IMG/VR virus record: IMGVR_UViG_3300043172_000799
Span: 156,944 to 168,384 of that record
Strand: one strand, 5' to 3'
Length of the DNA stretch: 11,441 nt
Source of the DNA: a virus
Lineage: Duplodnaviria > Heunggongvirae > Uroviricota > Caudoviricetes
The notes beneath the pieces are model-generated. The model did no database searches. It saw only the letters and a list, made by a program, of their open reading frames with translations, and was not told the DNA's origin. Within the stretch, counting starts at the first letter, position 1. The number at the start of each line of letters is the position of its first letter. The position numbers and the translations under genes were made by a program. Of this stretch, positions 1-10,789 are shown one piece after another.

Positions 1-1
1 A

Positions 2-679
2 ATTTTCTAAACATACTTGGATGATTGGTTCCATCTCATCATAGGAATATCCTAATTCTTCTTCATCAGTTTGCCCATTCCATAAGCCAGCAGAAGGAAT
101 TCTATCAATCATATCTTCATTAAGCATTCCAATTTCTACGAAATAATCAAGTAGTTGATAAACTTCTGATTTATAAAGTTCTCCAATTGGAAAGAAATCA
201 GCTAACGCATCACCACCTTTTGTATCATATCCTATGAAATCCTCACTGAGATTTCCAGTTCCAAGAACACGTGCTCTTTTTTTAAGGGTCTCTCCAAGCT
301 TACAGTTTAATGTATAAAGATAAATCATTCTCATTCGTGAACGAAGATTGCCTTCATTTATTGTAGATAGAGCTGTTCCAGGTCCAGTCATTTCTTTTTT
401 AACAGCACTTACTGAATTTGTTATAGAAAAAGTTCTATAATTAATTTCTAGTTTTGTGGCTAAGTTTGCTGATCTAAGATTAAATGTTTTAGCATCTAAT
501 TTATTATAAGGCATTCCATAACCATAAACATTTTCTTTTCCAAGTGCTAACACACAAAGACAAGCTACAAGAGTAGAATCAGCTCCTCCTGAGAGTCCTA
601 TTGTGGCTATTTCCATATTAGATTTTATGCTAGATTTGATATCTTCTATTATATTTTCTATTTCAGTTGTTTTTATCAT
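2..679 (-). CDS. nadE: NH3-dependent NAD+ synthetase, 3' end beyond window
   Basis: Not in the ORF track; translated by hand from ATG 679 (SD AGGAGG): MIKTTEIEN...IGLSGGADSTLVA...EGNLRSRMRM...GTGNLSEDFIGYDTKGGD...PIGELYKSEV...PSAGLWNGQTDEEELG. These are the NadE signature motifs. No N-terminal glutaminase domain. No stop before the window edge. Confidence 0.95.
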   Translation of the reverse strand, partial: MIKTTEIENIIEDIKSSIKSNMEIATIGLSGGADSTLVACLCVLALGKENVYGYGMPYNKLDAKTFNLRSANLATKLEINYRTFSITNSVSAVKKEMTGPGTALSTINEGNLRSRMRMIYLYTLNCKLGETLKKRARVLGTGNLSEDFIGYDTKGGDALADFFPIGELYKSEVYQLLDYFVEIGMLNEDMIDRIPSAGLWNGQTDEEELGYSYDEMEPIIQVCLEN

Positions 680-756
680 ATATCCTCCTTCCCCTGTTAA
701 TGTGCTTTCTACCTTTACAGATACTTTTAATCATATCTCCTAAATATCTTCATATA

Positions 757-781
757 GAGACTAGAAATGTACTCTAGTCTC
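757..781. other. Perfect 9-bp inverted repeat between vWA gene and nadE
   Basis: GAGACTAGA-aatgtac-TCTAGTCTC. No U-tract follows on the minus strand, so it is not a classic intrinsic terminator. Confidence 0.6.
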
Positions 782-792
782 CAATCAATTTA

Positions 793-1521
793 CTAGAAGG
801 TTAAGTCAATACTAGTCCCAGATGCCAGACTCTGTGAAGCACTACTAATTGATTTATTTACAAACTGAGCCAACTTTGCTAGATTCTCTGGAGTTGCATC
901 CCCCATTGATAAATAATGATCTAAACCTGCCTCATCTTTAAACTTTTGGAGAGCAGAAGCACATTGAGTATCATTTACCCCAATAAGTATAGTAAAAATT
1001 GTACCAGAAAGTTCTTCATTCTGAGTTACCTCATCCACTTTATTTCTTACAGCAGAGACATTTAATTTTGAATGCCTATCTTCACCATCACTTATTAAGA
1101 AGTTCACACAATTTACATCCATAAAGTGGTCATTTGTAAGAATGTTTGCATAATCAATTGTACTTCCAATTGCTTCATATGCAGCATCAAATAATGCTGT
1201 TCCCCCACCTGCTCTTACAGTGTAGTAGGTATCTACAAGATCAGCTACAGCTCTGAATCCATGCACTTCTTCTAATTCATGGTTAAAATAAACCACTCTA
1301 ACCAGAATGTTTTCAACTCTAGGATTCTTTTTACAACTACCAATTACAGTGGACACAGCTTCTGATAGTTCATTTTCAAAAGGACTTACACTTCCAGATT
1401 TATCCACAATAATATTAACCAGAGTGTATTCGCTGGCTTCCAATTTCTCTGGCTTTACAGCACTATATCCAAATGTACTCCCTGAGATTTTATTCTTAAT
1501 CATTTCTTCTAATTTTGGCAT
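793..1521 (-). CDS. von Willebrand factor A (vWA) domain protein
   Basis: MIDAS DxSxS (IVDKSGSV), GGGTALFDA, and LISDGED; SD GGAGG upstream. Confidence 0.9.
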   Translation of the reverse strand: MPKLEEMIKNKISGSTFGYSAVKPEKLEASEYTLVNIIVDKSGSVSPFENELSEAVSTVIGSCKKNPRVENILVRVVYFNHELEEVHGFRAVADLVDTYYTVRAGGGTALFDAAYEAIGSTIDYANILTNDHFMDVNCVNFLISDGEDRHSKLNVSAVRNKVDEVTQNEELSGTIFTILIGVNDTQCASALQKFKDEAGLDHYLSMGDATPENLAKLAQFVNKSISSASQSLASGTSIDLTF

Positions 1522-1531
1522 TTAATCCTCC

Positions 1532-1978
1532 TTAAAATCCAGTCTGTGAAGTGAAAAAATCAATAGTACCATTTCCAATTACAGAAACTTCTCTACCATG
1601 TACTATTTCATCATCTTCATCAGTGTATGCAAAATCTCGATGAGTGATTATAATATCCCCGTCAAAATCTTCAATTAATGTTGTAGTAAATTTTCTTTCA
1701 GTATGGTTATTAAAATCTGGATTATATTTTAATACTTCATCCAGTAGAAAAATACTGACCAATCCAGCATCAGCACAGAAATTACCAATGGGTTTTCCCG
1801 TTCCTTTTTCAAGTGTAGTACAACTCCAATCCCCATATCCAGTACCTCTTGTTAGATAAGTGGTGATTCCCAATTTTTCCATTTTACTACCATACTCACA
1901 TTTACCCCAATCTTCATCTGAGTCATCTCGGATGATATAACAAGGATCTGTGATAATTATATGCCCTTTAAATTTCAT
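1532..1978 (-). CDS. Hypothetical protein, 148 aa
   Basis: ORF with SD GGAG, packed between pncA and the vWA gene. Motif-like segments IIITDPCY, GYGDWSC, FCADAGLV. No family assigned. Confidence 0.85.
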   Translation of the reverse strand: MKFKGHIIITDPCYIIRDDSDEDWGKCEYGSKMEKLGITTYLTRGTGYGDWSCTTLEKGTGKPIGNFCADAGLVSIFLLDEVLKYNPDFNNHTERKFTTTLIEDFDGDIIITHRDFAYTDEDDEIVHGREVSVIGNGTIDFFTSQTGF

Positions 1979-1987
1979 TCTATACTC

Positions 1988-2779
1988 CTAATCAAAACAA
2001 GTATCTGATGTTACTACATGTCCACCAGCATTTCTCACATACTCAAAGAAATCCGTCTCAGCCTGTTCAAATCCCGTAACTGCATCCATACAGTCACTCA
2101 GGACATAAAACTTAGAGAGATGTTCTTTCCCACAATTCTCAATCAACTGCTCTGTAGAACGTTTGACACAGTGACTACTGGCTTCCCCCACTATGAACAA
2201 TCTATCACAATCTTCCAGAAGAGAAAGGTAGGATGGATCAAACTGTGTACGGGGGTCATCAGAAGTTGGTACTTCAGCACTGAATACACCATAGTTCTCA
2301 GTTTTGAAATTACTTCCTTTAGTAAGTCTGGTAGCAATGGCTTTATTGGAGGTTTCCCACTCTCTTACTGCTTCCAATACAGGAGTGTAAACAGCACCAC
2401 CTTCTGATCCAATGATACAGTGTGGAGGCCATATACAAAGTATGTTCTTACCTGTCTTTTTCAGTTCCTCTGTGTAATACAAGCTCCACTCTTTCAAGGG
2501 GAGGGGTGTCTTCCATACACTGTTTACTACATCAGCATGTGAAATAAGTGTGAATGGATCGGGATGCTCACCTTTCTCATTCGTCCACATAATGGGATGT
2601 GCAATATGCATATCGTAATGGGAATCGAGTGTGATAAAAATATCATCAATCTTTCTACCATTATCTGCAATCAATTTAGCAACACGATCCATTGAGCTTT
2701 CCGCATTGGGAACTGACAATGCTCCTGTGGGAAGTACAAAATCCAACTGTGGATCTACAATTAAAATCTTTATTTTCAT
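1988..2779 (-). CDS. pncA: Nicotinamidase (isochorismatase/cysteine hydrolase family)
   Basis: LIVDPQLDFV (catalytic D), GALSV, metal ligands DSH..H, WPPHCIIGSEG, KG (catalytic K), GEASSHCV (nucleophile C). Lies in the same unit as nadE. Confidence 0.9.
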   Translation of the reverse strand: MKIKILIVDPQLDFVLPTGALSVPNAESSMDRVAKLIADNGRKIDDIFITLDSHYDMHIAHPIMWTNEKGEHPDPFTLISHADVVNSVWKTPLPLKEWSLYYTEELKKTGKNILCIWPPHCIIGSEGGAVYTPVLEAVREWETSNKAIATRLTKGSNFKTENYGVFSAEVPTSDDPRTQFDPSYLSLLEDCDRLFIVGEASSHCVKRSTEQLIENCGKEHLSKFYVLSDCMDAVTGFEQAETDFFEYVRNAGGHVVTSDTCFD

Positions 2780-2802
2780 ATAATTTCTCCTTTTGTTAAT
2801 TT

Positions 2803-2831
2803 AATATAATCTATTTATTTAATTTTGTCAA
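2803..2831 (-). promoter_or_regulatory. sigma70-type promoter of the pncA-nadE unit
   Basis: TTGACA (2831-2826), 17-nt spacer, TATATT (2808-2803), then AAGGAGAAATTATATG. Confidence 0.8.
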
Positions 2832-2834
2832 TGA

Positions 2835-3233
2835 TTATCTGTTTGCTTTATCAAAATTAGGCAGATATTTACAAACTTTTTTGTAAAGACCTTCAACATC
2901 TATCATGGCCTTTCCTGATCTGTCCTGTCGGGAACAGGCATCTTTTAAAATACTTTCAGTGAGGTATCCTAATTGATGAGATCTTAAAACAGCTAACATT
3001 TTGTTTGTCTTCTTATCACAGATATCAGACCAAAGGACGTAGATATCTGTTCCATATATACCTATTGAATCAAGACTTAATATTGCACCGATAGACCCCA
3101 TAAAGTCATCAGGATCTATTTTTCCTTTATCCTCAATAATACTCATCATTGCTCCCACAGCTCCTGGGTTCCCTTCAGCCATTTTCGTAAGCATTGACAT
3201 AATATTGTCTTCTAAAGTAATTCTTTCATGCAT
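2835..3233 (-). CDS. Hypothetical phage protein, 132 aa
   Basis: ORF with its own promoter and SD AAGGAG. Segments MAEGNPGA and GIYGTDIYVLWSDIC. No function assigned. Confidence 0.85.
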   Translation of the reverse strand: MHERITLEDNIMSMLTKMAEGNPGAVGAMMSIIEDKGKIDPDDFMGSIGAILSLDSIGIYGTDIYVLWSDICDKKTNKMLAVLRSHQLGYLTESILKDACSRQDRSGKAMIDVEGLYKKVCKYLPNFDKANR

Positions 3234-3265: not shown

Positions 3266-3294
3266 ACTATAGCACATTATACAGGTAGTGTCAA
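3266..3294 (-). promoter_or_regulatory. sigma70-type promoter
   Basis: TTGACA (3294-3289), 17-nt spacer, TATAGT (3271-3266). Confidence 0.8.
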
Positions 3295-3302
3295 GAGGTT
3301 TA

Positions 3303-4757
3303 TTAAATATCTTCTAGATCCTGTAGATCCTCTTCTGAATATCCTGCTTCACAAATGACTTCATTATAGTTAGGAATATCCTTTTTCCACCTACTATCTA
3401 TAATAGGTCTTCCAATTGTGAAATTCTGGAGAGATACAATCTCTCCAGAATATTCATCATTTCTACCAGATCCTGAGATTCGCATTATACCTCTATCTTT
3501 TTCGGCATCTGTCTGATTTAAACTAAGAAGGAGAGAAGCATGGTGAAATAATTCATATGATTCTGCAATAGTTTGTTCAGATCCACCAATCTTCAAACCT
3601 TGTTTAGAGAACTGGATAGGAGCAAAGACTACCAACCCCATCTCTTCACAAAGTTCCCTTTTTATTCTAACGGCAGTATCTCCATATTGATGTCTCTTCT
3701 CTGTCCCCTTTGCACCGGAGATTAGAGAAAGCTGATCGATCACAATTACATCAAAATCAACACCCTCATATTGGGATTTATTAATAATGGTATTTTTTAT
3801 ACTATCAATACTTGAACCACCAGATGTGGTGTCTAAGAGGTGAAATTCCCCAGGATTACATTGTCTATCAAATAGCTTATAAACTCTTTTTGCTTTGGCA
3901 GGAGTGAGTTGTTGTATCGCATGTTTCTTATGTAGAATATTTCCATTCTTATCAAACTCTGGAATGTACTTCTTATCTCGTATTTTCTTGAATGTCTTTC
4001 CACTAACAAACTGTGCAATTCTTTTTCCAAACAGTTTTTTATTCATTTCCAAAGACCAGTACCCAACAGTCAATCCTGCCTGTACTGCATACATAGCAAT
4101 TTGCATACTATAAAAACTCTTTCCTCTCTTTGAATTTCCACCAATCATGATAAAATCACCCTGTACTATTTCAGGAACTAATTCCCCCAAAGCACCTGGA
4201 ATTTCAAAGAGAGTATCCTCCTGTACAAATAATTCATTCAGTGCCTCCATATCTTTAAAGACATTTACACCCTTAGTATTGTTAACTTCTTTTCTTACAT
4301 AATCTTTCTGCTCTCTTTCTGCTTCCTGAATTTTACCCTGAGAGACAAGTCCCTTAATCCTATCTGCGGATTCATCTAGTGATCTGCCTTTGATATATTG
4401 CTCAACCTGATTGTAAATTAATTCAGCATCAAACTTCTGTTTGTTCTCTAAATACTTTTCATTAATATTTTCCAAAGCCGATTCAATCAGATACACATCC
4501 TCTTCTGATTGGATATTTTTCTGTTCTGCTTTGTATATATCCATAATAGAAGTATTACAAGCAGTCTCATAATCATTATAATACTGGAGACTCCACATAA
4601 TAATAATTCTGAGATATTTACTCTTTAGTAAATCTATATCATCTCCAATGAGAAGATTAAATTTCCGGCAGAATTGTGTAGAGACAATTGTTCCGATGGC
4701 AATATTCAGTTCATCATCTAAGGAAACCTTAGACCTCCGGTACTTCGCCATAAACAT
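3303..4757 (-). CDS. DnaB-like (SF4) replicative helicase
   Basis: Walker A GNSKRGKS, YWSLEM (H1a catalytic E), Walker B VIVIDQL, PIQFSK (H3); SD AAGGAGG. Confidence 0.85.
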   Translation of the reverse strand: MFMAKYRRSKVSLDDELNIAIGTIVSTQFCRKFNLLIGDDIDLLKSKYLRIIIMWSLQYYNDYETACNTSIMDIYKAEQKNIQSEEDVYLIESALENINEKYLENKQKFDAELIYNQVEQYIKGRSLDESADRIKGLVSQGKIQEAEREQKDYVRKEVNNTKGVNVFKDMEALNELFVQEDTLFEIPGALGELVPEIVQGDFIMIGGNSKRGKSFYSMQIAMYAVQAGLTVGYWSLEMNKKLFGKRIAQFVSGKTFKKIRDKKYIPEFDKNGNILHKKHAIQQLTPAKAKRVYKLFDRQCNPGEFHLLDTTSGGSSIDSIKNTIINKSQYEGVDFDVIVIDQLSLISGAKGTEKRHQYGDTAVRIKRELCEEMGLVVFAPIQFSKQGLKIGGSEQTIAESYELFHHASLLLSLNQTDAEKDRGIMRISGSGRNDEYSGEIVSLQNFTIGRPIIDSRWKKDIPNYNEVICEAGYSEEDLQDLEDI

Positions 4758-5286
4758 TTCCCTCCTTAGATCTATATTTCAAGTAAGAAAACTCTTTGAA
4801 GTAATTCCCCTCTGCATCCTTACGAACTCTGACAGCTTCTTCTTTGGTAGAGAATCCACCCAAACAGTGATCTTTCCCATCTACAGTGATTTTTGCAACC
4901 CATTTATCCCACTTCTTATCAAACGTAACTCCTTTACACCCAGAGGTATTGTTGGATCGTAATTTAGTGTTCATGGAATTCTGACTACATGTAGCTGGAC
5001 GTAAATTGTTTTTTCTATTATTTAGACCATTCCCATCTTTATGCTCTACAATGAATCCCTCCTCACATGGTAAGATTATCTGATGTATTTTAGTCTCTCC
5101 AGATGAGCCACGTATCCCAGCACGTGCATAGGCTAGTCCACCTCTATAAGTTTTTTTTCCCCAGCAATAATTACGCACATTTTCATAATCCTCTGTATCA
5201 ATTATTGCATAGCCTTCACTATTAAAAAAGAATATTTTAGTGTAAACCCCACATACTTCAATAGGGTTTGTTTTGTATTTTTCCAT
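4729..5286 (-). CDS. HNH homing endonuclease with C-terminal AP2 domain
   Basis: VEHKDGNGLNNRKNNLR (HNH_3 type), then NNTSGCKGV..W.AKI...LGGFSTKEEA (AP2). Start placed at ATG 5286 (TGATG overlap with upstream stop) rather than TTG 5289. Confidence 0.9.
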   Translation of the reverse strand: MEKYKTNPIEVCGVYTKIFFFNSEGYAIIDTEDYENVRNYCWGKKTYRGGLAYARAGIRGSSGETKIHQIILPCEEGFIVEHKDGNGLNNRKNNLRPATCSQNSMNTKLRSNNTSGCKGVTFDKKWDKWVAKITVDGKDHCLGGFSTKEEAVRVRKDAEGNYFKEFSYLKYRSKEGNVYGEVPEV

Positions 5287-5915
5287 CAAACCCCCTCATT
5301 CTCTATTCTATATTTTGTAGCCCCATTCCTACTAAAATTATGGTGATATATCTTATTAACCCACTCTAGAAACTCTTCTTTGCTCAATGCTCTTTTGGAA
5401 AAGTTGCATTGAGAACAACATGGCACACTGTTCTCAATGGTGTACCCATATGCACTATCTACTCTATCTATACCATTTATCTCCAATATTTCTTCAGACA
5501 TTTTCTTACCTAGCATCCTTTCGTGTCTGTCTTTTATTACTCTTGAATAAGGAGTACCACAATAACTGCAACTTGATTTTGATAGTTCTTTAAATTTTAA
5601 GAGAGATATCACCTCTCCTGTCATATTTTTTGTGTTGTGTCTCCTTTTTAAGTGTGAATACTGGACTCGTAACATAGCATCTTGCCTGTCTGCATATACT
5701 CCAAATTGATTCCCACTTTTATGTAAGAACTCCACCTTTAAACATCCACAACTTTTAGATTTCCCACTGGATAAATTATCGGATGTCACTATTTTTTTAT
5801 TGCCACAATCGCATGAGCATAGCCATAAATGCTTTCCCCTATGATCCTTACCTCTGTGCTCTTTAGCTATGAGTCTTCCGTATCTTTTATTTGTTCGATC
5901 TAAAAACCTAGGCAT
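5286..5915 (-). CDS. HNH endonuclease with N-terminal Cys-rich DNA-binding module
   Basis: YGRL...WLCSCDCG...NLSSGKSKSCGC N-terminal module; CSYCG...GIDRVDSAYGYTIENSVPCCSQCN zinc-bound HNH core. Confidence 0.85.
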   Translation of the reverse strand: MPRFLDRTNKRYGRLIAKEHRGKDHRGKHLWLCSCDCGNKKIVTSDNLSSGKSKSCGCLKVEFLHKSGNQFGVYADRQDAMLRVQYSHLKRRHNTKNMTGEVISLLKFKELSKSSCSYCGTPYSRVIKDRHERMLGKKMSEEILEINGIDRVDSAYGYTIENSVPCCSQCNFSKRALSKEEFLEWVNKIYHHNFSRNGATKYRIENEGV

Positions 5916-9863: not shown

Positions 9864-9937
9864 TTGCGGAGGAGGGACTTGAACCCACGACCTTCGGGAT
9901 ATGAGCCCGACGAGCTACCAACTGCTACCACTCCGCT
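9864..9937 (-). tRNA. tRNA-fMet (CAT), initiator type
   Basis: Anticodon arm TCGGG-CTCATAT-CCCGA with three consecutive G-C pairs; A1:A72 mismatch; T-loop TTCAAGT; no encoded CCA. Confidence 0.93.
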
Positions 9938-9943
9938 GTATAT

Positions 9944-10016
9944 CATCCCCAATTCGACTTGAACGAATGCATAATGGATTCAAAATCCACCGTGTTACCA
10001 ACTTCACCATAGGGAC
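9944..10016 (-). tRNA. tRNA-Gln (TTG)
   Basis: Acceptor GTCCCTA/TGGGGAT, G73; anticodon arm GTGGA-TTTTGAA-TCCAT; T-arm ATTCG-TTCAAGT-CGAAT. Confidence 0.9.
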
Positions 10017-10021
10017 ATAAA

Positions 10022-10150
10022 AGTACTTATTAGACGATCTCCAACAGTTAGGATTACAGAACTGTATCTGCATTGTTATATCTGTTTACTAGACAGAAGC
10101 CGTTCTCATCGTCACTTCTGCCATCAGAATATAATGTCTTAGTACTTATT
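10022..10150 (+). repeat. 10-bp direct repeat AGTACTTATT (10022-10031 and 10141-10150)
   Basis: Exact copies 119 nt apart, bracketing the Leu-Gln spacer. Confidence 0.8.
10031..10129 (-). ncRNA. Candidate tRNA-sized structured RNA or degenerate tRNA
   Basis: Closing stem GACGAT/ATCGTC; arm TCTGT-CTAGTAA-ACAGA; hairpin ACAGTT/AACTGT; 5' hairpin TTCTG-ATGG-CAGAA. No canonical D or T arm. Confidence 0.4.
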
Positions 10151-10231
10151 ACCCCAAGAGAGACTTGAACTCTCACACCTTTCGGTACTAGATCCTAAAT
10201 CTAGCGTGTCTACCAATTTCACCATCAGGGC
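10150..10231 (-). tRNA. tRNA-Leu (TAG)
   Basis: Anticodon arm CTAGA-TTTAGGA-TCTAG; long variable arm TACC-GAAA-GGTG; T-arm GAGAG-TTCAAGT-CTCTC; A73. Confidence 0.95.
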
Positions 10232-10249
10232 GTAAAATAACCTTTATTT

Positions 10250-10700
10250 CAATACAGCTATTGCAAGTCACTATACCTACGTAAAGGATGTTAATCAATA
10301 TCAGTCGGGGAGCTAATAGCTTATTAGCTCCTTTACCCTTCATGAGGGAAATCCGGTTGTGTCCTTCGGGTCAACAAATCCCAAAGCCAATCCCCATTAA
10401 CGTTATCCAGAACCGAACAAAATTAACAATTACATATAGGGTTTTCACCTACACCAAGGACTCCACCTCTTTAGTATCAAACCCATAGTCACTTGGGATA
10501 ATCCTTATTACGCCGACTAAACGGTATCTCATGTTATCTCCAGATACTGGTTTGGACTCACACCATACTTCGTGGGCTGATCACTTTTTTGCCGAGACGA
10601 TCCCACATCACGTCGCAAATACTACTGCTATGACCTACAGTACTGCCATCATTCTCCTGTTTAGGCAAAATCTGTATAAATACGCATGGTTTCCCACGAG
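10250..10700 (-). ncRNA. Candidate large structured RNA (~430-450 nt) inside the tRNA array
   Basis: Nested end pairing ATACAG (10677-72)/CTGTAT (10257-52) and TGCCTA (10667-62)/TAGGTA (10279-74). Tandem T-loop-like hairpins 10457-10468 and 10436-10452. Perfect 10-bp hairpin 10309-10331. GAAA hairpin 10685-10698. No long minus-strand ORF. Confidence 0.6.
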
Positions 10701-10709
10701 GAGCGTTTT

Positions 10710-10781
10710 CAGGTCATTAAAGACTTGAACTCTATCTGAGGAATTTGGAATTCCTAGTGCTACCGATTACACCAATGACCT
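10710..10781 (-). tRNA. tRNA-Trp (CCA)
   Basis: Acceptor AGGTCAT/ATGACCT, G73; anticodon arm AGGAA-TTCCAAA-TTCCT; T-loop TTCAAGT. Confidence 0.93.
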
Positions 10782-10789
10782 ATGTTTAT

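What the first reader, a model, noticed from the sequence alone, without database searches (positions are those of the whole stretch)
2..2831. Phage-type operon for deamidating (Preiss-Handler) NAD salvage: a possible additional NAD-reconstitution route
Seen: one consensus promoter upstream of pncA, unknown ORF, vWA and NH3-dependent nadE, in a phage-like context. Established: SIR2/TIR-type defences (Thoeris, DSR and similar) cleave NAD+ to ADP-ribose and nicotinamide. The described phage counter-pathways are NARP1 (Adps + Namat) and NARP2 (Nampt + Nmnat), and neither uses PncA or NadE. Inference: this locus rebuilds NAD via Nam -> NA -> NaMN -> NaAD -> NAD. PncA releases the ammonia that a glutaminase-less NadE needs, so the pair is chemically matched. 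PncB and NadD are not in the window and must lie beyond the left edge, elsewhere in the genome, or be host-supplied.
Basis: partly seen in the sequence, partly recalled or inferred. Interest (0 to 1): 0.8.

Follow-up and report, generated by a model that had tools for sequence, protein, structure and literature searches.

The report
Phage nicotinamide-to-NAD salvage operon with kinase cassette
A complete 168-kb tailed phage carries three of the four enzymes that turn nicotinamide back into NAD+ (nicotinamidase, PncB, NadE), a gene set already reported in large phages, but here the nicotinamidase belongs to a widespread four-gene unit with a vWA protein, a phosphatase and a kinase that I found described in no paper.

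Summary
On the minus strand there is an 11/12 sigma-70-like promoter (2803-2831). It is followed by a 263-aa nicotinamidase-like gene, a 148-aa unknown ORF, a MIDAS-bearing vWA gene and a glutaminase-less nadE.

A bona fide pncB lies 46 nt beyond nadE, just left of the window. The record is a real, complete tailed phage. It has no NadD/NadM/NadR-type gene, so that step must be host-supplied.

The 'pncA' misses Pfam's isochorismatase model. Its AlphaFold model (pLDDT 94.5) nevertheless matches only nicotinamidases at the top of the PDB ranking, and the catalytic triad and metal ligands are invariant across the family.

Here nadE-pncB sit inside that cassette.

Phage Preiss-Handler gene clusters are already published from sequence analysis (Microbiome 2024). 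A counter-defence role remains untested. The 'ammonia matching' idea is not conserved, because most relatives appear to use glutamine-dependent NadE.

Earlier agents of this scan noted the same cassette on other DNA, in at least 67 genomes. I reached it independently.

The parts
2803..2831 (-). sigma-70-like promoter, TTGACA-17-TATATT (11/12), in the 55-nt gap before the nicotinamidase gene
   Evidence: L001 4331..4303 = window 2831..2803. The count of such sites in the region is not above shuffles.
1988..2779 (-). 263-aa nicotinamidase-like enzyme (divergent PncA clade): nicotinamide + H2O -> nicotinate + NH3 (inferred)
   Evidence: AF2 pLDDT 94.5. The top Foldseek PDB matches are all nicotinamidases; the best is yeast Pnc1, E 2e-15. 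D9/K154/C204 and D52/H54/H120 (WPPHC) are invariant in 34 sequences. No Pfam hit at E 0.01.
1532..1978 (-). 148-aa conserved hypothetical; a lineage-specific insertion between the nicotinamidase and vWA genes
   Evidence: No Pfam, PHROG, NCBIfam or PADLOC hit. 993 homologous clusters, those aligned at 57-70% identity, all unnamed. Absent from all 166 related loci. C13/C53/C68 and D11/D50/D70 are invariant.
793..1521 (-). 242-aa vWA protein with an intact MIDAS motif and a conserved Ser-rich C-terminal tail; the adaptor of the cassette
   Evidence: It lies next to (mostly directly after) the nicotinamidase gene in 81 of 86 viral and 38 of 80 bacterial loci.
1..679 (-). First 226 codons of the NH3-dependent NAD synthetase NadE (full gene 279 aa, ending 160 nt left of the window). 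Further left, outside the window on the same strand: pncB (genome 155570-156736), ORF131, ORF74, PP2C (153890-154657) and Ser/Thr kinase (152362-153903).
   Evidence: for NadE. for PncB. for PP2C and the kinase.

Best explanation
The phage carries a same-strand block: nicotinamidase-like enzyme, ORF148, vWA, NadE, PncB, ORF131, ORF74, PP2C, Ser/Thr kinase. It supplies three of the four steps of the deamidating (Preiss-Handler) route from nicotinamide to NAD+.

- Nam -> NA: the PncA-like enzyme.
- NA + PRPP (+ATP) -> NaMN: PncB.
- NaMN -> NaAD: host NadD, because the complete phage genome has no such gene.
- NaAD + NH3 + ATP -> NAD+: NadE.

Its expected effect is to raise or restore NAD+ in the infected cell from free nicotinamide.

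The nicotinamidase is not a lone metabolic gene. It belongs to a conserved four-gene unit with a MIDAS vWA protein, a PP2C phosphatase and a kinase that carries an all-beta (propeller-like) C-terminal domain. In this phage nadE-pncB were inserted into that unit.

Shown here: gene identities, active-site conservation, synteny, co-occurrence, and the completeness and viral nature of the genome.

Inferred:
- That the enzymes are active and raise NAD+.
- That the purpose is to counter NAD+-cleaving defences (about 45%) rather than general NAD+ supply (about 35%).
- That the kinase and phosphatase switch the nicotinamidase, directly or through the vWA protein (about 35%).
For: - Nicotinamidase fold and residues.
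- PncB is above both NCBIfam cut-offs, and its closest solved structure is P. aeruginosa PncB2 at E 8e-104.
- NadE is above the TIGR00552 cut-off, and its closest solved structures are NH3-dependent NadEs.
- All genes are on one strand with strong Shine-Dalgarno sequences and gaps of -14 to 245 nt. There is no minus-strand terminator-like site from pncA to the kinase gene.
- Real, complete phage: terminase, portal, tape measure, DNA polymerase and RNR genes; a 133-nt end overlap; CheckV 100%.
- The clade is linked to NAD genes. PncB lies within 7 kb in 17 of 86 viral and 18 of 80 bacterial loci. In several bacterial loci PncB is adjacent with no vWA hit.
- In 50 larger viral records that carry the clade, 27 have a NAPRTase gene and 24 have a NAD synthase gene (11 of 19 for each among records at least 90% complete). 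By contrast, PncB homologues occur in only 14 of 50,697 GenBank phage records.
- A 205-kb phage with direct terminal repeats has the full set in one block: PncA-like, vWA, PP2C, kinase, PncB, Gln-NadE, NadD-like, NUDIX.
- Cassette conservation: vWA in 81, PP2C in 68 and kinase in 71 of 86 viral loci.
Against: - No activity, expression or NAD+ measurement exists for any member.
- The nicotinamidase-like protein fails Pfam PF00857 and the NCBIfam PncA cut-off, so substrate specificity rests on structure and context.
- Without NadD the route depends on the host.
- Most hosts already have PncA, PncB and NadE, so the gain is in flux, not in a new capability.
- The phage has no NAD-dependent ligase, ARH, NUDIX or Prs gene that would point to a particular NAD+ need or to ADP-ribose recycling.
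- PADLOC models for TerY-P do not match the triad.
- The propeller assignment is weak (pLDDT 74, Foldseek E 1e-4, TM about 0.3).
Confidence: 0.7

Rival explanations
1. The enzymes are the same, but the module is a general auxiliary metabolic set. It keeps NAD(P)+ supply high for phage replication in nutrient-poor or stressed hosts and is not a countermeasure against NAD+-depleting immunity.
For: Published surveys treat such genes as AMGs (PMC11662467, PMC12647753). Phage PA5oct induces the host pncA-pncB1-nadE operon during an ordinary infection (PMC7318152). This phage also carries RNR and other nucleotide-metabolism genes. No ADP-ribose-handling gene is present.
Against: Free nicotinamide in bacteria arises mainly from NAD+ cleavage. 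The three published phage NAD+ pathways were all shown to act as counter-defence. A dedicated kinase/phosphatase/vWA unit suggests a triggered response rather than a constitutive function.
Confidence: 0.35
2. The conserved unit (amidase + vWA + PP2C + kinase) is primarily a TerY-P-like signalling or conflict module, for example superinfection exclusion or host takeover. Its amidase acts on something other than nicotinamide, and nadE-pncB are neighbours by accident.
For: The triad architecture resembles TerY-P, which includes stand-alone anti-phage systems (PMC11090510). The amidase misses the Pfam and NCBIfam cut-offs. In most viral loci (69 of 86) no PncB lies within 7 kb.
Against: The nicotinamidase-specific metal site and the WPxHC motif are invariant. 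The top structural matches are all nicotinamidases, ahead of other isochorismatase-fold amidases. PncB, NadE and NadD-like genes recur in or beside the cassette in both phages and bacteria. PADLOC TerY-P models give no hit.
Confidence: 0.12
3. NadE acts as an NMN synthetase (NaMN -> NMN, as in Francisella). The route would then be Nam -> NA -> NaMN -> NMN -> NAD+, with the last step done by a host NMN adenylyltransferase rather than via NaAD.
For: The phage NadE belongs to the short NadE group, whose solved members include Francisella tularensis 3fiu (E 8e-23). The phage lacks NadD.
Against: The closer solved relatives are labelled ordinary NH3-dependent NAD synthetases (P. horikoshii 2e18 at E 6e-31, C. 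jejuni 3p52). Related phages pair NadE with a NadD-like gene. Either route still needs a host adenylyltransferase. That Francisella NadE prefers NaMN is from my own knowledge (Sorci et al. 2009) and was not checked here.
Confidence: 0.12
4. The locus is a bacterial housekeeping NAD operon on a mis-binned or chromosomal contig.
For: The same nicotinamidase clade occurs in 442 bacterial genome assemblies. Several IMG/VR relatives are classed as proviruses.
Against: The 168-kb record has terminase, portal, head morphogenesis, tape measure, minor tail, DNA polymerase and RNR genes, HNH endonucleases and a tRNA cluster. It also has a 133-nt end overlap and a CheckV completeness of 100%.
Confidence: 0.02

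Closest known systems
'NAD-jumbo phage' Preiss-Handler clusters (Li et al., Microbiome 2024, PMC11662467; e.g. Kuafu_71 pncB-nadD-nadE)
   Same: Phage-borne, clustered pncB and nadE for the deamidating NAD+ route. That paper also mentions phage pncA. All of this is from sequence analysis only.
   Different: This phage is 168 kb, not above 200 kb. It lacks nadD. It includes a divergent nicotinamidase that is tied to a vWA/PP2C/kinase cassette. I did not get to check that paper for the cassette, because my term search failed on syntax.
NARP1 (Adps + Namat), NARP2 (Nampt + Nmnat), NARP3 (PnuC + NadR)
   Same: Phage-encoded routes that rebuild NAD+ from its breakdown products or precursors. Like NARP1 and NARP2, this one starts from nicotinamide.
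   Different: The enzymes are different (PncA-like, PncB, NadE). The route goes through nicotinate, NaMN and NaAD, needs host NadD, and uses no ADP-ribose. No experimental evidence of counter-defence exists. Prs-like and HIGH-motif adenylyltransferase genes are absent.
Bacterial pncA-pncB-nadE salvage operons (e.g. P. aeruginosa pncA-pncB1-nadE, induced by phage PA5oct; PMC7318152)
   Same: The same three enzymes in one operon. PncB is most similar to P. aeruginosa PncB2 among solved structures.
   Different: It is carried by a virus. The nicotinamidase belongs to a separate ~265-aa clade. A vWA gene and an unknown ORF are interleaved, and a PP2C and a kinase follow. The genome has no NUDIX gene and therefore no NrtR-type regulator.
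TerY-P triad (TerY-like vWA + PP2C + Ser/Thr kinase; Anantharaman, Iyer and Aravind 2012 and Gao et al. 2020, as summarised in PMC11090510)
   Same: The same three domain types occur in one gene neighbourhood. The vWA structure resembles clusters that carry vWA-TerF-like domains.
   Different: A nicotinamidase is the fourth fixed partner. The kinase C-terminus is all-beta and propeller-like, not a zinc ribbon or OB fold. The PADLOC TerY-P models do not match. The context is NAD+ salvage, not restriction or tellurite resistance.

Membership tests
Nicotinamidase (PncA/Pnc1, EC 3.5.1.19) | Isochorismatase-like alpha/beta fold closest to solved nicotinamidases | tested here: met
   AF2 model pLDDT 94.5. 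The top Foldseek PDB matches are all nicotinamidases, from E 2e-15 to about 1e-8.
Nicotinamidase (PncA/Pnc1, EC 3.5.1.19) | Asp-Lys-Cys catalytic triad | tested here: met
   D9, K154 and C204 are invariant in 34 family members. They align with the corresponding motifs of yeast Pnc1 and M. tuberculosis PncA.
Nicotinamidase (PncA/Pnc1, EC 3.5.1.19) | Metal site (Asp, His, His, including the WPxHC motif) that sets nicotinamidases apart from other isochorismatase-fold amidases | tested here: met
   D52, H54 and H120 are invariant. DSH aligns with DWH of Pnc1, and WPPHC aligns with WPVHC and WPPHC. That this site is nicotinamidase-specific is from my own knowledge.
Nicotinamidase (PncA/Pnc1, EC 3.5.1.19) | Score above the curated family cut-offs (Pfam PF00857; NCBIfam NF008623) | tested here: not met
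   No Pfam hit at E 0.01. NF008623 scores 37 bits against a cut-off of 174. Some clade members do carry a precomputed PF00857 hit.
Nicotinamidase (PncA/Pnc1, EC 3.5.1.19) | Hydrolysis of nicotinamide to nicotinate | not testable with these tools
   This needs an enzyme assay.
Nicotinate phosphoribosyltransferase PncB | Equivalog-level HMM score, with both the N-terminal and the catalytic domains | tested here: met
   TIGR01514 scores 439 bits (cut-off 269.55) and NF003704 scores 525 bits (cut-off 379). PF17767 and PF04095 both hit. PDB 1yir matches at E 8e-104.
NH3-dependent NAD+ synthetase NadE | NAD_synthase domain above cut-off, SGGxDS ATP-pyrophosphatase loop, no glutaminase domain | tested here: met
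   TIGR00552 scores 156 bits against a cut-off of 63.65. It is a single-domain protein of 279 aa. 'GLSGGADS' can be read in the translation.
NARP1 | Prs-like Adps plus a Namat-type transferase | tested here: not met
   The genome has no Pribosyltran_N hit. The only NAPRTase-family gene is a PncB equivalog.
NARP2 / NARP3 | Nampt + Nmnat, or PnuC + NadR (both need a HIGH-motif adenylyltransferase, PF01467) | tested here: not met
   No PF01467 match in the complete genome. PnuC was not searched for.
Complete phage Preiss-Handler cluster (pncB + nadD + nadE) | All three genes carried by the phage | tested here: not met
   pncB and nadE are present. There is no nadD-type gene in the genome. A relative, L175, has all of them.
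TerY-P triad | vWA + PP2C + Ser/Thr kinase encoded together | tested here: met
   All three are present on one strand within 6.1 kb here, interrupted by nadE, pncB and two small ORFs. In relatives such as L006 they are contiguous.
TerY-P triad | Match to TerY-P defence models; kinase C-terminal zinc ribbon or OB fold | tested here: not met
   PADLOC gives no hit for the vWA protein, a generic PP2C hit at E 4e-4, and kinase hits only to mad6 and PD-T4-6. The kinase C-terminus is modelled as all-beta and propeller-like.

The most novel reading that the evidence does not exclude
The nicotinamidase/vWA/PP2C/propeller-kinase unit is a phosphorylation-gated switch on nicotinamide recycling. In phages, together with PncB and NadE (and host or phage NadD), it would form a regulated fourth NAD+-reconstitution pathway. 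It would be turned on when a host NADase defence fires.
Probability: 0.3. Interest if true: 0.8.

Novelty: new variant of a known kind. Interest (0 to 1): 0.55.

Why it matters
NAD+ depletion is a major mode of bacterial anti-phage immunity. Three phage pathways that rebuild NAD+ have been shown experimentally, and none of them uses the deamidating route.

This locus is a compact, testable example of that route in a complete mid-sized phage. Three phage enzymes work with host NadD.

It also ties a TerY-P-like kinase/phosphatase/vWA module to a defined enzyme. No substrate or output is known for that class of module. If the coupling is regulatory, it would be a rare case of protein phosphorylation controlling NAD+ salvage in prokaryotes and their viruses.

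Tried and rejected
- Megablast of the whole window against GenBank phages found no match.
- The PADLOC scan of eight proteins of the block gave no TerY-P or other convincing defence-system hit.
- A profile of the vWA family searched against PDB sequences found nothing meaningful.
- Pfam at E up to 10 found nothing for ORF148, ORF132, ORF131 or ORF74.
- Rfam at gathering threshold found no riboswitch in the window, only four tRNAs.
As a result I could not inspect the close relatives P0002 and P0003 (76-82% identity) or the Desulfonema and Vecturithrix chromosomal contexts of P0025 and P0082 by that route. I used the search for related loci instead.
- Because, I did not check PMC11662467 for vWA, PP2C or kinase terms.
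- I considered ORF148 or ORF131 as a non-orthologous NadD. I rejected this because they are too small, and the translations I read show no HxGH-type motif. Only the PF01467 search was a real test.
- I considered ammonia channelling between PncA and NadE. I rejected it as a conserved principle because most related phages appear to have glutamine-dependent NadE.
Full report
**Where the window lies**

The window is the last 11.4 kb (156944-168384) of a 168,384-bp IMG/VR virus record rated 100% complete by CheckV. Its two ends overlap by 133 nt with one mismatch. The assembly therefore closes on itself, and the absence of a gene is meaningful.

The genome encodes a large terminase, portal, head-morphogenesis protein, tape measure, minor tail protein, DNA polymerase and ribonucleotide reductase. 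The window itself adds a DnaB-like helicase, an SNF2 helicase, two HNH endonucleases, a phosphoesterase and four tRNAs.

**The observation**

All genes of the finding are on the minus strand. Each has an AGGAG/GGAGG ribosome-binding site.

- **Promoter.** An 11/12 promoter-like site, TTGACA-17-TATATT, sits at 2831..2803 in the 55-nt gap before the first gene. A second 11/12 site at 3294..3266 precedes ORF132. The overall number of such sites is no higher than in shuffled sequence.
- **nadE** (2..679, full gene 279 aa) is a single-domain NAD synthase. TIGR00552 scores 156 bits against a cut-off of 63.65. There is no CN_hydrolase domain. Its nearest solved relatives are NH3-dependent enzymes.
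- **vWA** (793..1521) is weak as a single sequence. As a family, 12 of 30 members match PF00092. The MIDAS residues D40, S44, T108 and D145 are invariant, and S42 is the majority residue. Atlas structure matches reach TM 0.72-0.92 to VWA clusters, including vWA-TerF-like ones.

**The 'pncA'**

The 263-aa ORF (1988..2779) gives no Pfam hit at E 0.01. It scores only 37 bits against NCBIfam's PncA model, whose cut-off is 174. The name therefore needed testing.

- phmmer against PDB sequences returns seven weak matches at E up to 1. Six are labelled nicotinamidases (one of these, 3r2j, only in its Foldseek title), and yeast Pnc1 is the best.
- In a 34-sequence alignment of the clade, D9, K154 and C204 (the triad) are invariant. 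So are D52, H54 and H120 (the metal ligands, the last in a WPPHC motif).
- The AlphaFold model is confident (pLDDT 94.5).
- Its top PDB matches are all nicotinamidases from yeast, Acinetobacter, Drosophila, Pyrococcus, Leishmania, M. tuberculosis, S. pneumoniae and B. subtilis. Other isochorismatase-fold amidases come only below them.

I accept it as a nicotinamidase-like enzyme of a separate ~265-aa clade. Its activity is untested.

**Left of the window**

It is there, 46 nt after nadE at genome 155570-156736. It scores above both NCBIfam PncB cut-offs, and P. aeruginosa PncB2 is its nearest solved structure.

The whole genome has no PF01467 (NadD/NadM/NadR), NUDIX, Prs-like, NAD-dependent ligase or ADP-ribosylglycohydrolase match. 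The phage therefore supplies steps 1, 2 and 4 of Nam -> NA -> NaMN -> NaAD -> NAD+, and the host must supply NadD.

After pncB come two small unknown ORFs, then a PP2C phosphatase and a 513-aa Ser/Thr kinase. The whole run from pncA to the kinase gene is on one strand, with gaps of -14 to 245 nt and no minus-strand terminator-like site.

**The conserved cassette**

A tblastn search of the block's proteins against loci that carry a homologue of the nicotinamidase gave the main new result.

- In 86 viral loci (a few duplicated between scans), a vWA homologue is present in 81, usually directly downstream. A PP2C is present in 68 and the kinase in 71.
- In compact examples such as L006 the four genes are contiguous.
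- 179 viral contigs and 442 bacterial genome assemblies encode the clade.
- In 80 bacterial loci, many of them on short contigs, 38 have the vWA gene.
- The kinases are mostly 550-580 aa. The C-terminal 264 residues of this one model as an all-beta, propeller-like domain, at modest confidence and with weak PDB matches.
- ORF148 occurs in none of these loci. It belongs to a large, strongly conserved but unnamed family and looks like an independent insertion.

In this phage, nadE, pncB and two small ORFs lie between the vWA and PP2C genes.

**Link between the cassette and NAD+ genes**

- PncB lies within 7 kb of the nicotinamidase in 17 of 86 viral and 18 of 80 bacterial loci. NadE does so in 8 and 4.
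- Several bacterial loci have the nicotinamidase next to PncB with no vWA hit nearby. This fits an ordinary nicotinamidase role.
- Across 50 larger viral records with the clade, 27 carry a NAPRTase-family gene, 24 a NAD synthase and 29 a cytidylyltransferase-like gene. Among records at least 90% complete the counts are 11, 11 and 12 of 19.
- For scale, homologues of this PncB occur in only 14 of 50,697 GenBank phage records.
- A 205-kb phage with terminal repeats has the full set in one block: nicotinamidase, vWA, PP2C, kinase, PncB, NadE with a CN_hydrolase domain, a NadD-like gene and a NUDIX gene.
- Fourteen of the 24 NadE hits lie in open frames of 570 aa or more.

**Literature**

- The NARP1/2 preprint does not mention PncA, PncB or NadE.
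- NARP3 is PnuC + NadR.
- Li et al. (Microbiome 2024, PMC11662467) already report jumbo phages with complete Preiss-Handler clusters (pncB-nadD-nadE), and they mention phage pncA.
- CPR and DPANN viruses with pncA, pncB and nadE AMGs are reported in PMC12647753.
- Phage PA5oct induces the host pncA-pncB1-nadE operon (PMC7318152).
- No held paper combines vWA, PP2C, kinase and nicotinamidase.
- TerY-P triads are described as putative phospho-switches and as defence systems (PMC11090510). The PADLOC models do not match these proteins.

**Earlier notes of this scan**

After I had found the cassette, a look-up showed that earlier agents noted the same four-gene unit beside NAD+ salvage genes in at least 67 other genomes. 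Those are unchecked AI notes. They agree with my result but are not independent evidence. One recurring element of those notes, an NrtR regulator, is absent here, since the genome has no NUDIX domain.

**Verdict**

That phages carry this route at all is not new. Its role against NAD+-depleting immunity is plausible but untested.

The less expected feature is that the nicotinamidase is locked to a vWA/PP2C/kinase unit, with nadE-pncB nested inside it here. I rate the locus a new variant of a known kind, of moderate interest.

Noticed in passing
window 1532-1978 (-): ORF148 belongs to a large unnamed family: 993 clusters at E<=1e-3, those aligned at 57-70% identity, some in Paenibacillus genomes. 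Invariant motifs are IIITDPCY, YGDWSC and FCADAG (three Cys, three Asp). There is no Pfam model. The Atlas gives only a weak DUF4241 lead. The function is unknown, and the gene is not found beside the cassette elsewhere.
   Followed up: partly
window 9864-10782 (-): A cluster of four tRNA genes (Met-CAT, Gln-TTG, Leu-TAG, Trp-CCA) lies in the ORF-poor, slightly GC-richer end of the window.
   Followed up: partly
window 4729-5915 (-): Two adjacent HNH-type endonuclease genes (186 and 209 aa; the first has an AP2-like domain) are wedged between the DnaB-like and SNF2 helicase genes. They are probably homing endonucleases.
   Followed up: no
L171:943-3639 (+) (genome 45942-48638): The large terminase ORF is 898 aa. 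Its N- and C-terminal terminase matches are split around a stretch that hits endonuclease, helicase-loader and primase PHROGs. This may be an intein or an inserted domain.
   Followed up: no
L171:9840-11183 (+) (genome 54839-56182): A transposase-like gene (phrog_506, E 3e-39) sits inside the phage's structural region, next to an endonuclease VII-like gene and a metallophosphoesterase gene.
   Followed up: no
L003:18132-18527 (-) and L003:17662-17886 (-): Two small ORFs (131 and 74 aa) lie between pncB and the PP2C gene. They have no family hit in any library. The 74-aa one is Cys-rich (CSCEDC). Neither is found in the related loci.
   Followed up: partly
L175:1123-12824 (+): A 205-kb phage with direct terminal repeats carries the fullest version in one block: nicotinamidase, vWA, PP2C, a 705-aa kinase, PncB, glutamine-dependent NadE, a NadD-like gene and a NUDIX gene.
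   Followed up: partly
window 793-1521 (-), C-terminal tail: The vWA family has a nearly invariant Ser-rich C-terminal tail (consensus SKSISSQSQALGTGG). It is a candidate phospho-acceptor for the neighbouring kinase. The nicotinamidase also has an invariant T178 in a lower-confidence loop.
   Followed up: no
window 2835-3233 (-): ORF132 lies upstream of the nicotinamidase gene and has its own 11/12 promoter-like site with an extended -10 TG (3294..3266). It has no hit in any library. Whether it belongs to the operon is unknown.
   Followed up: no
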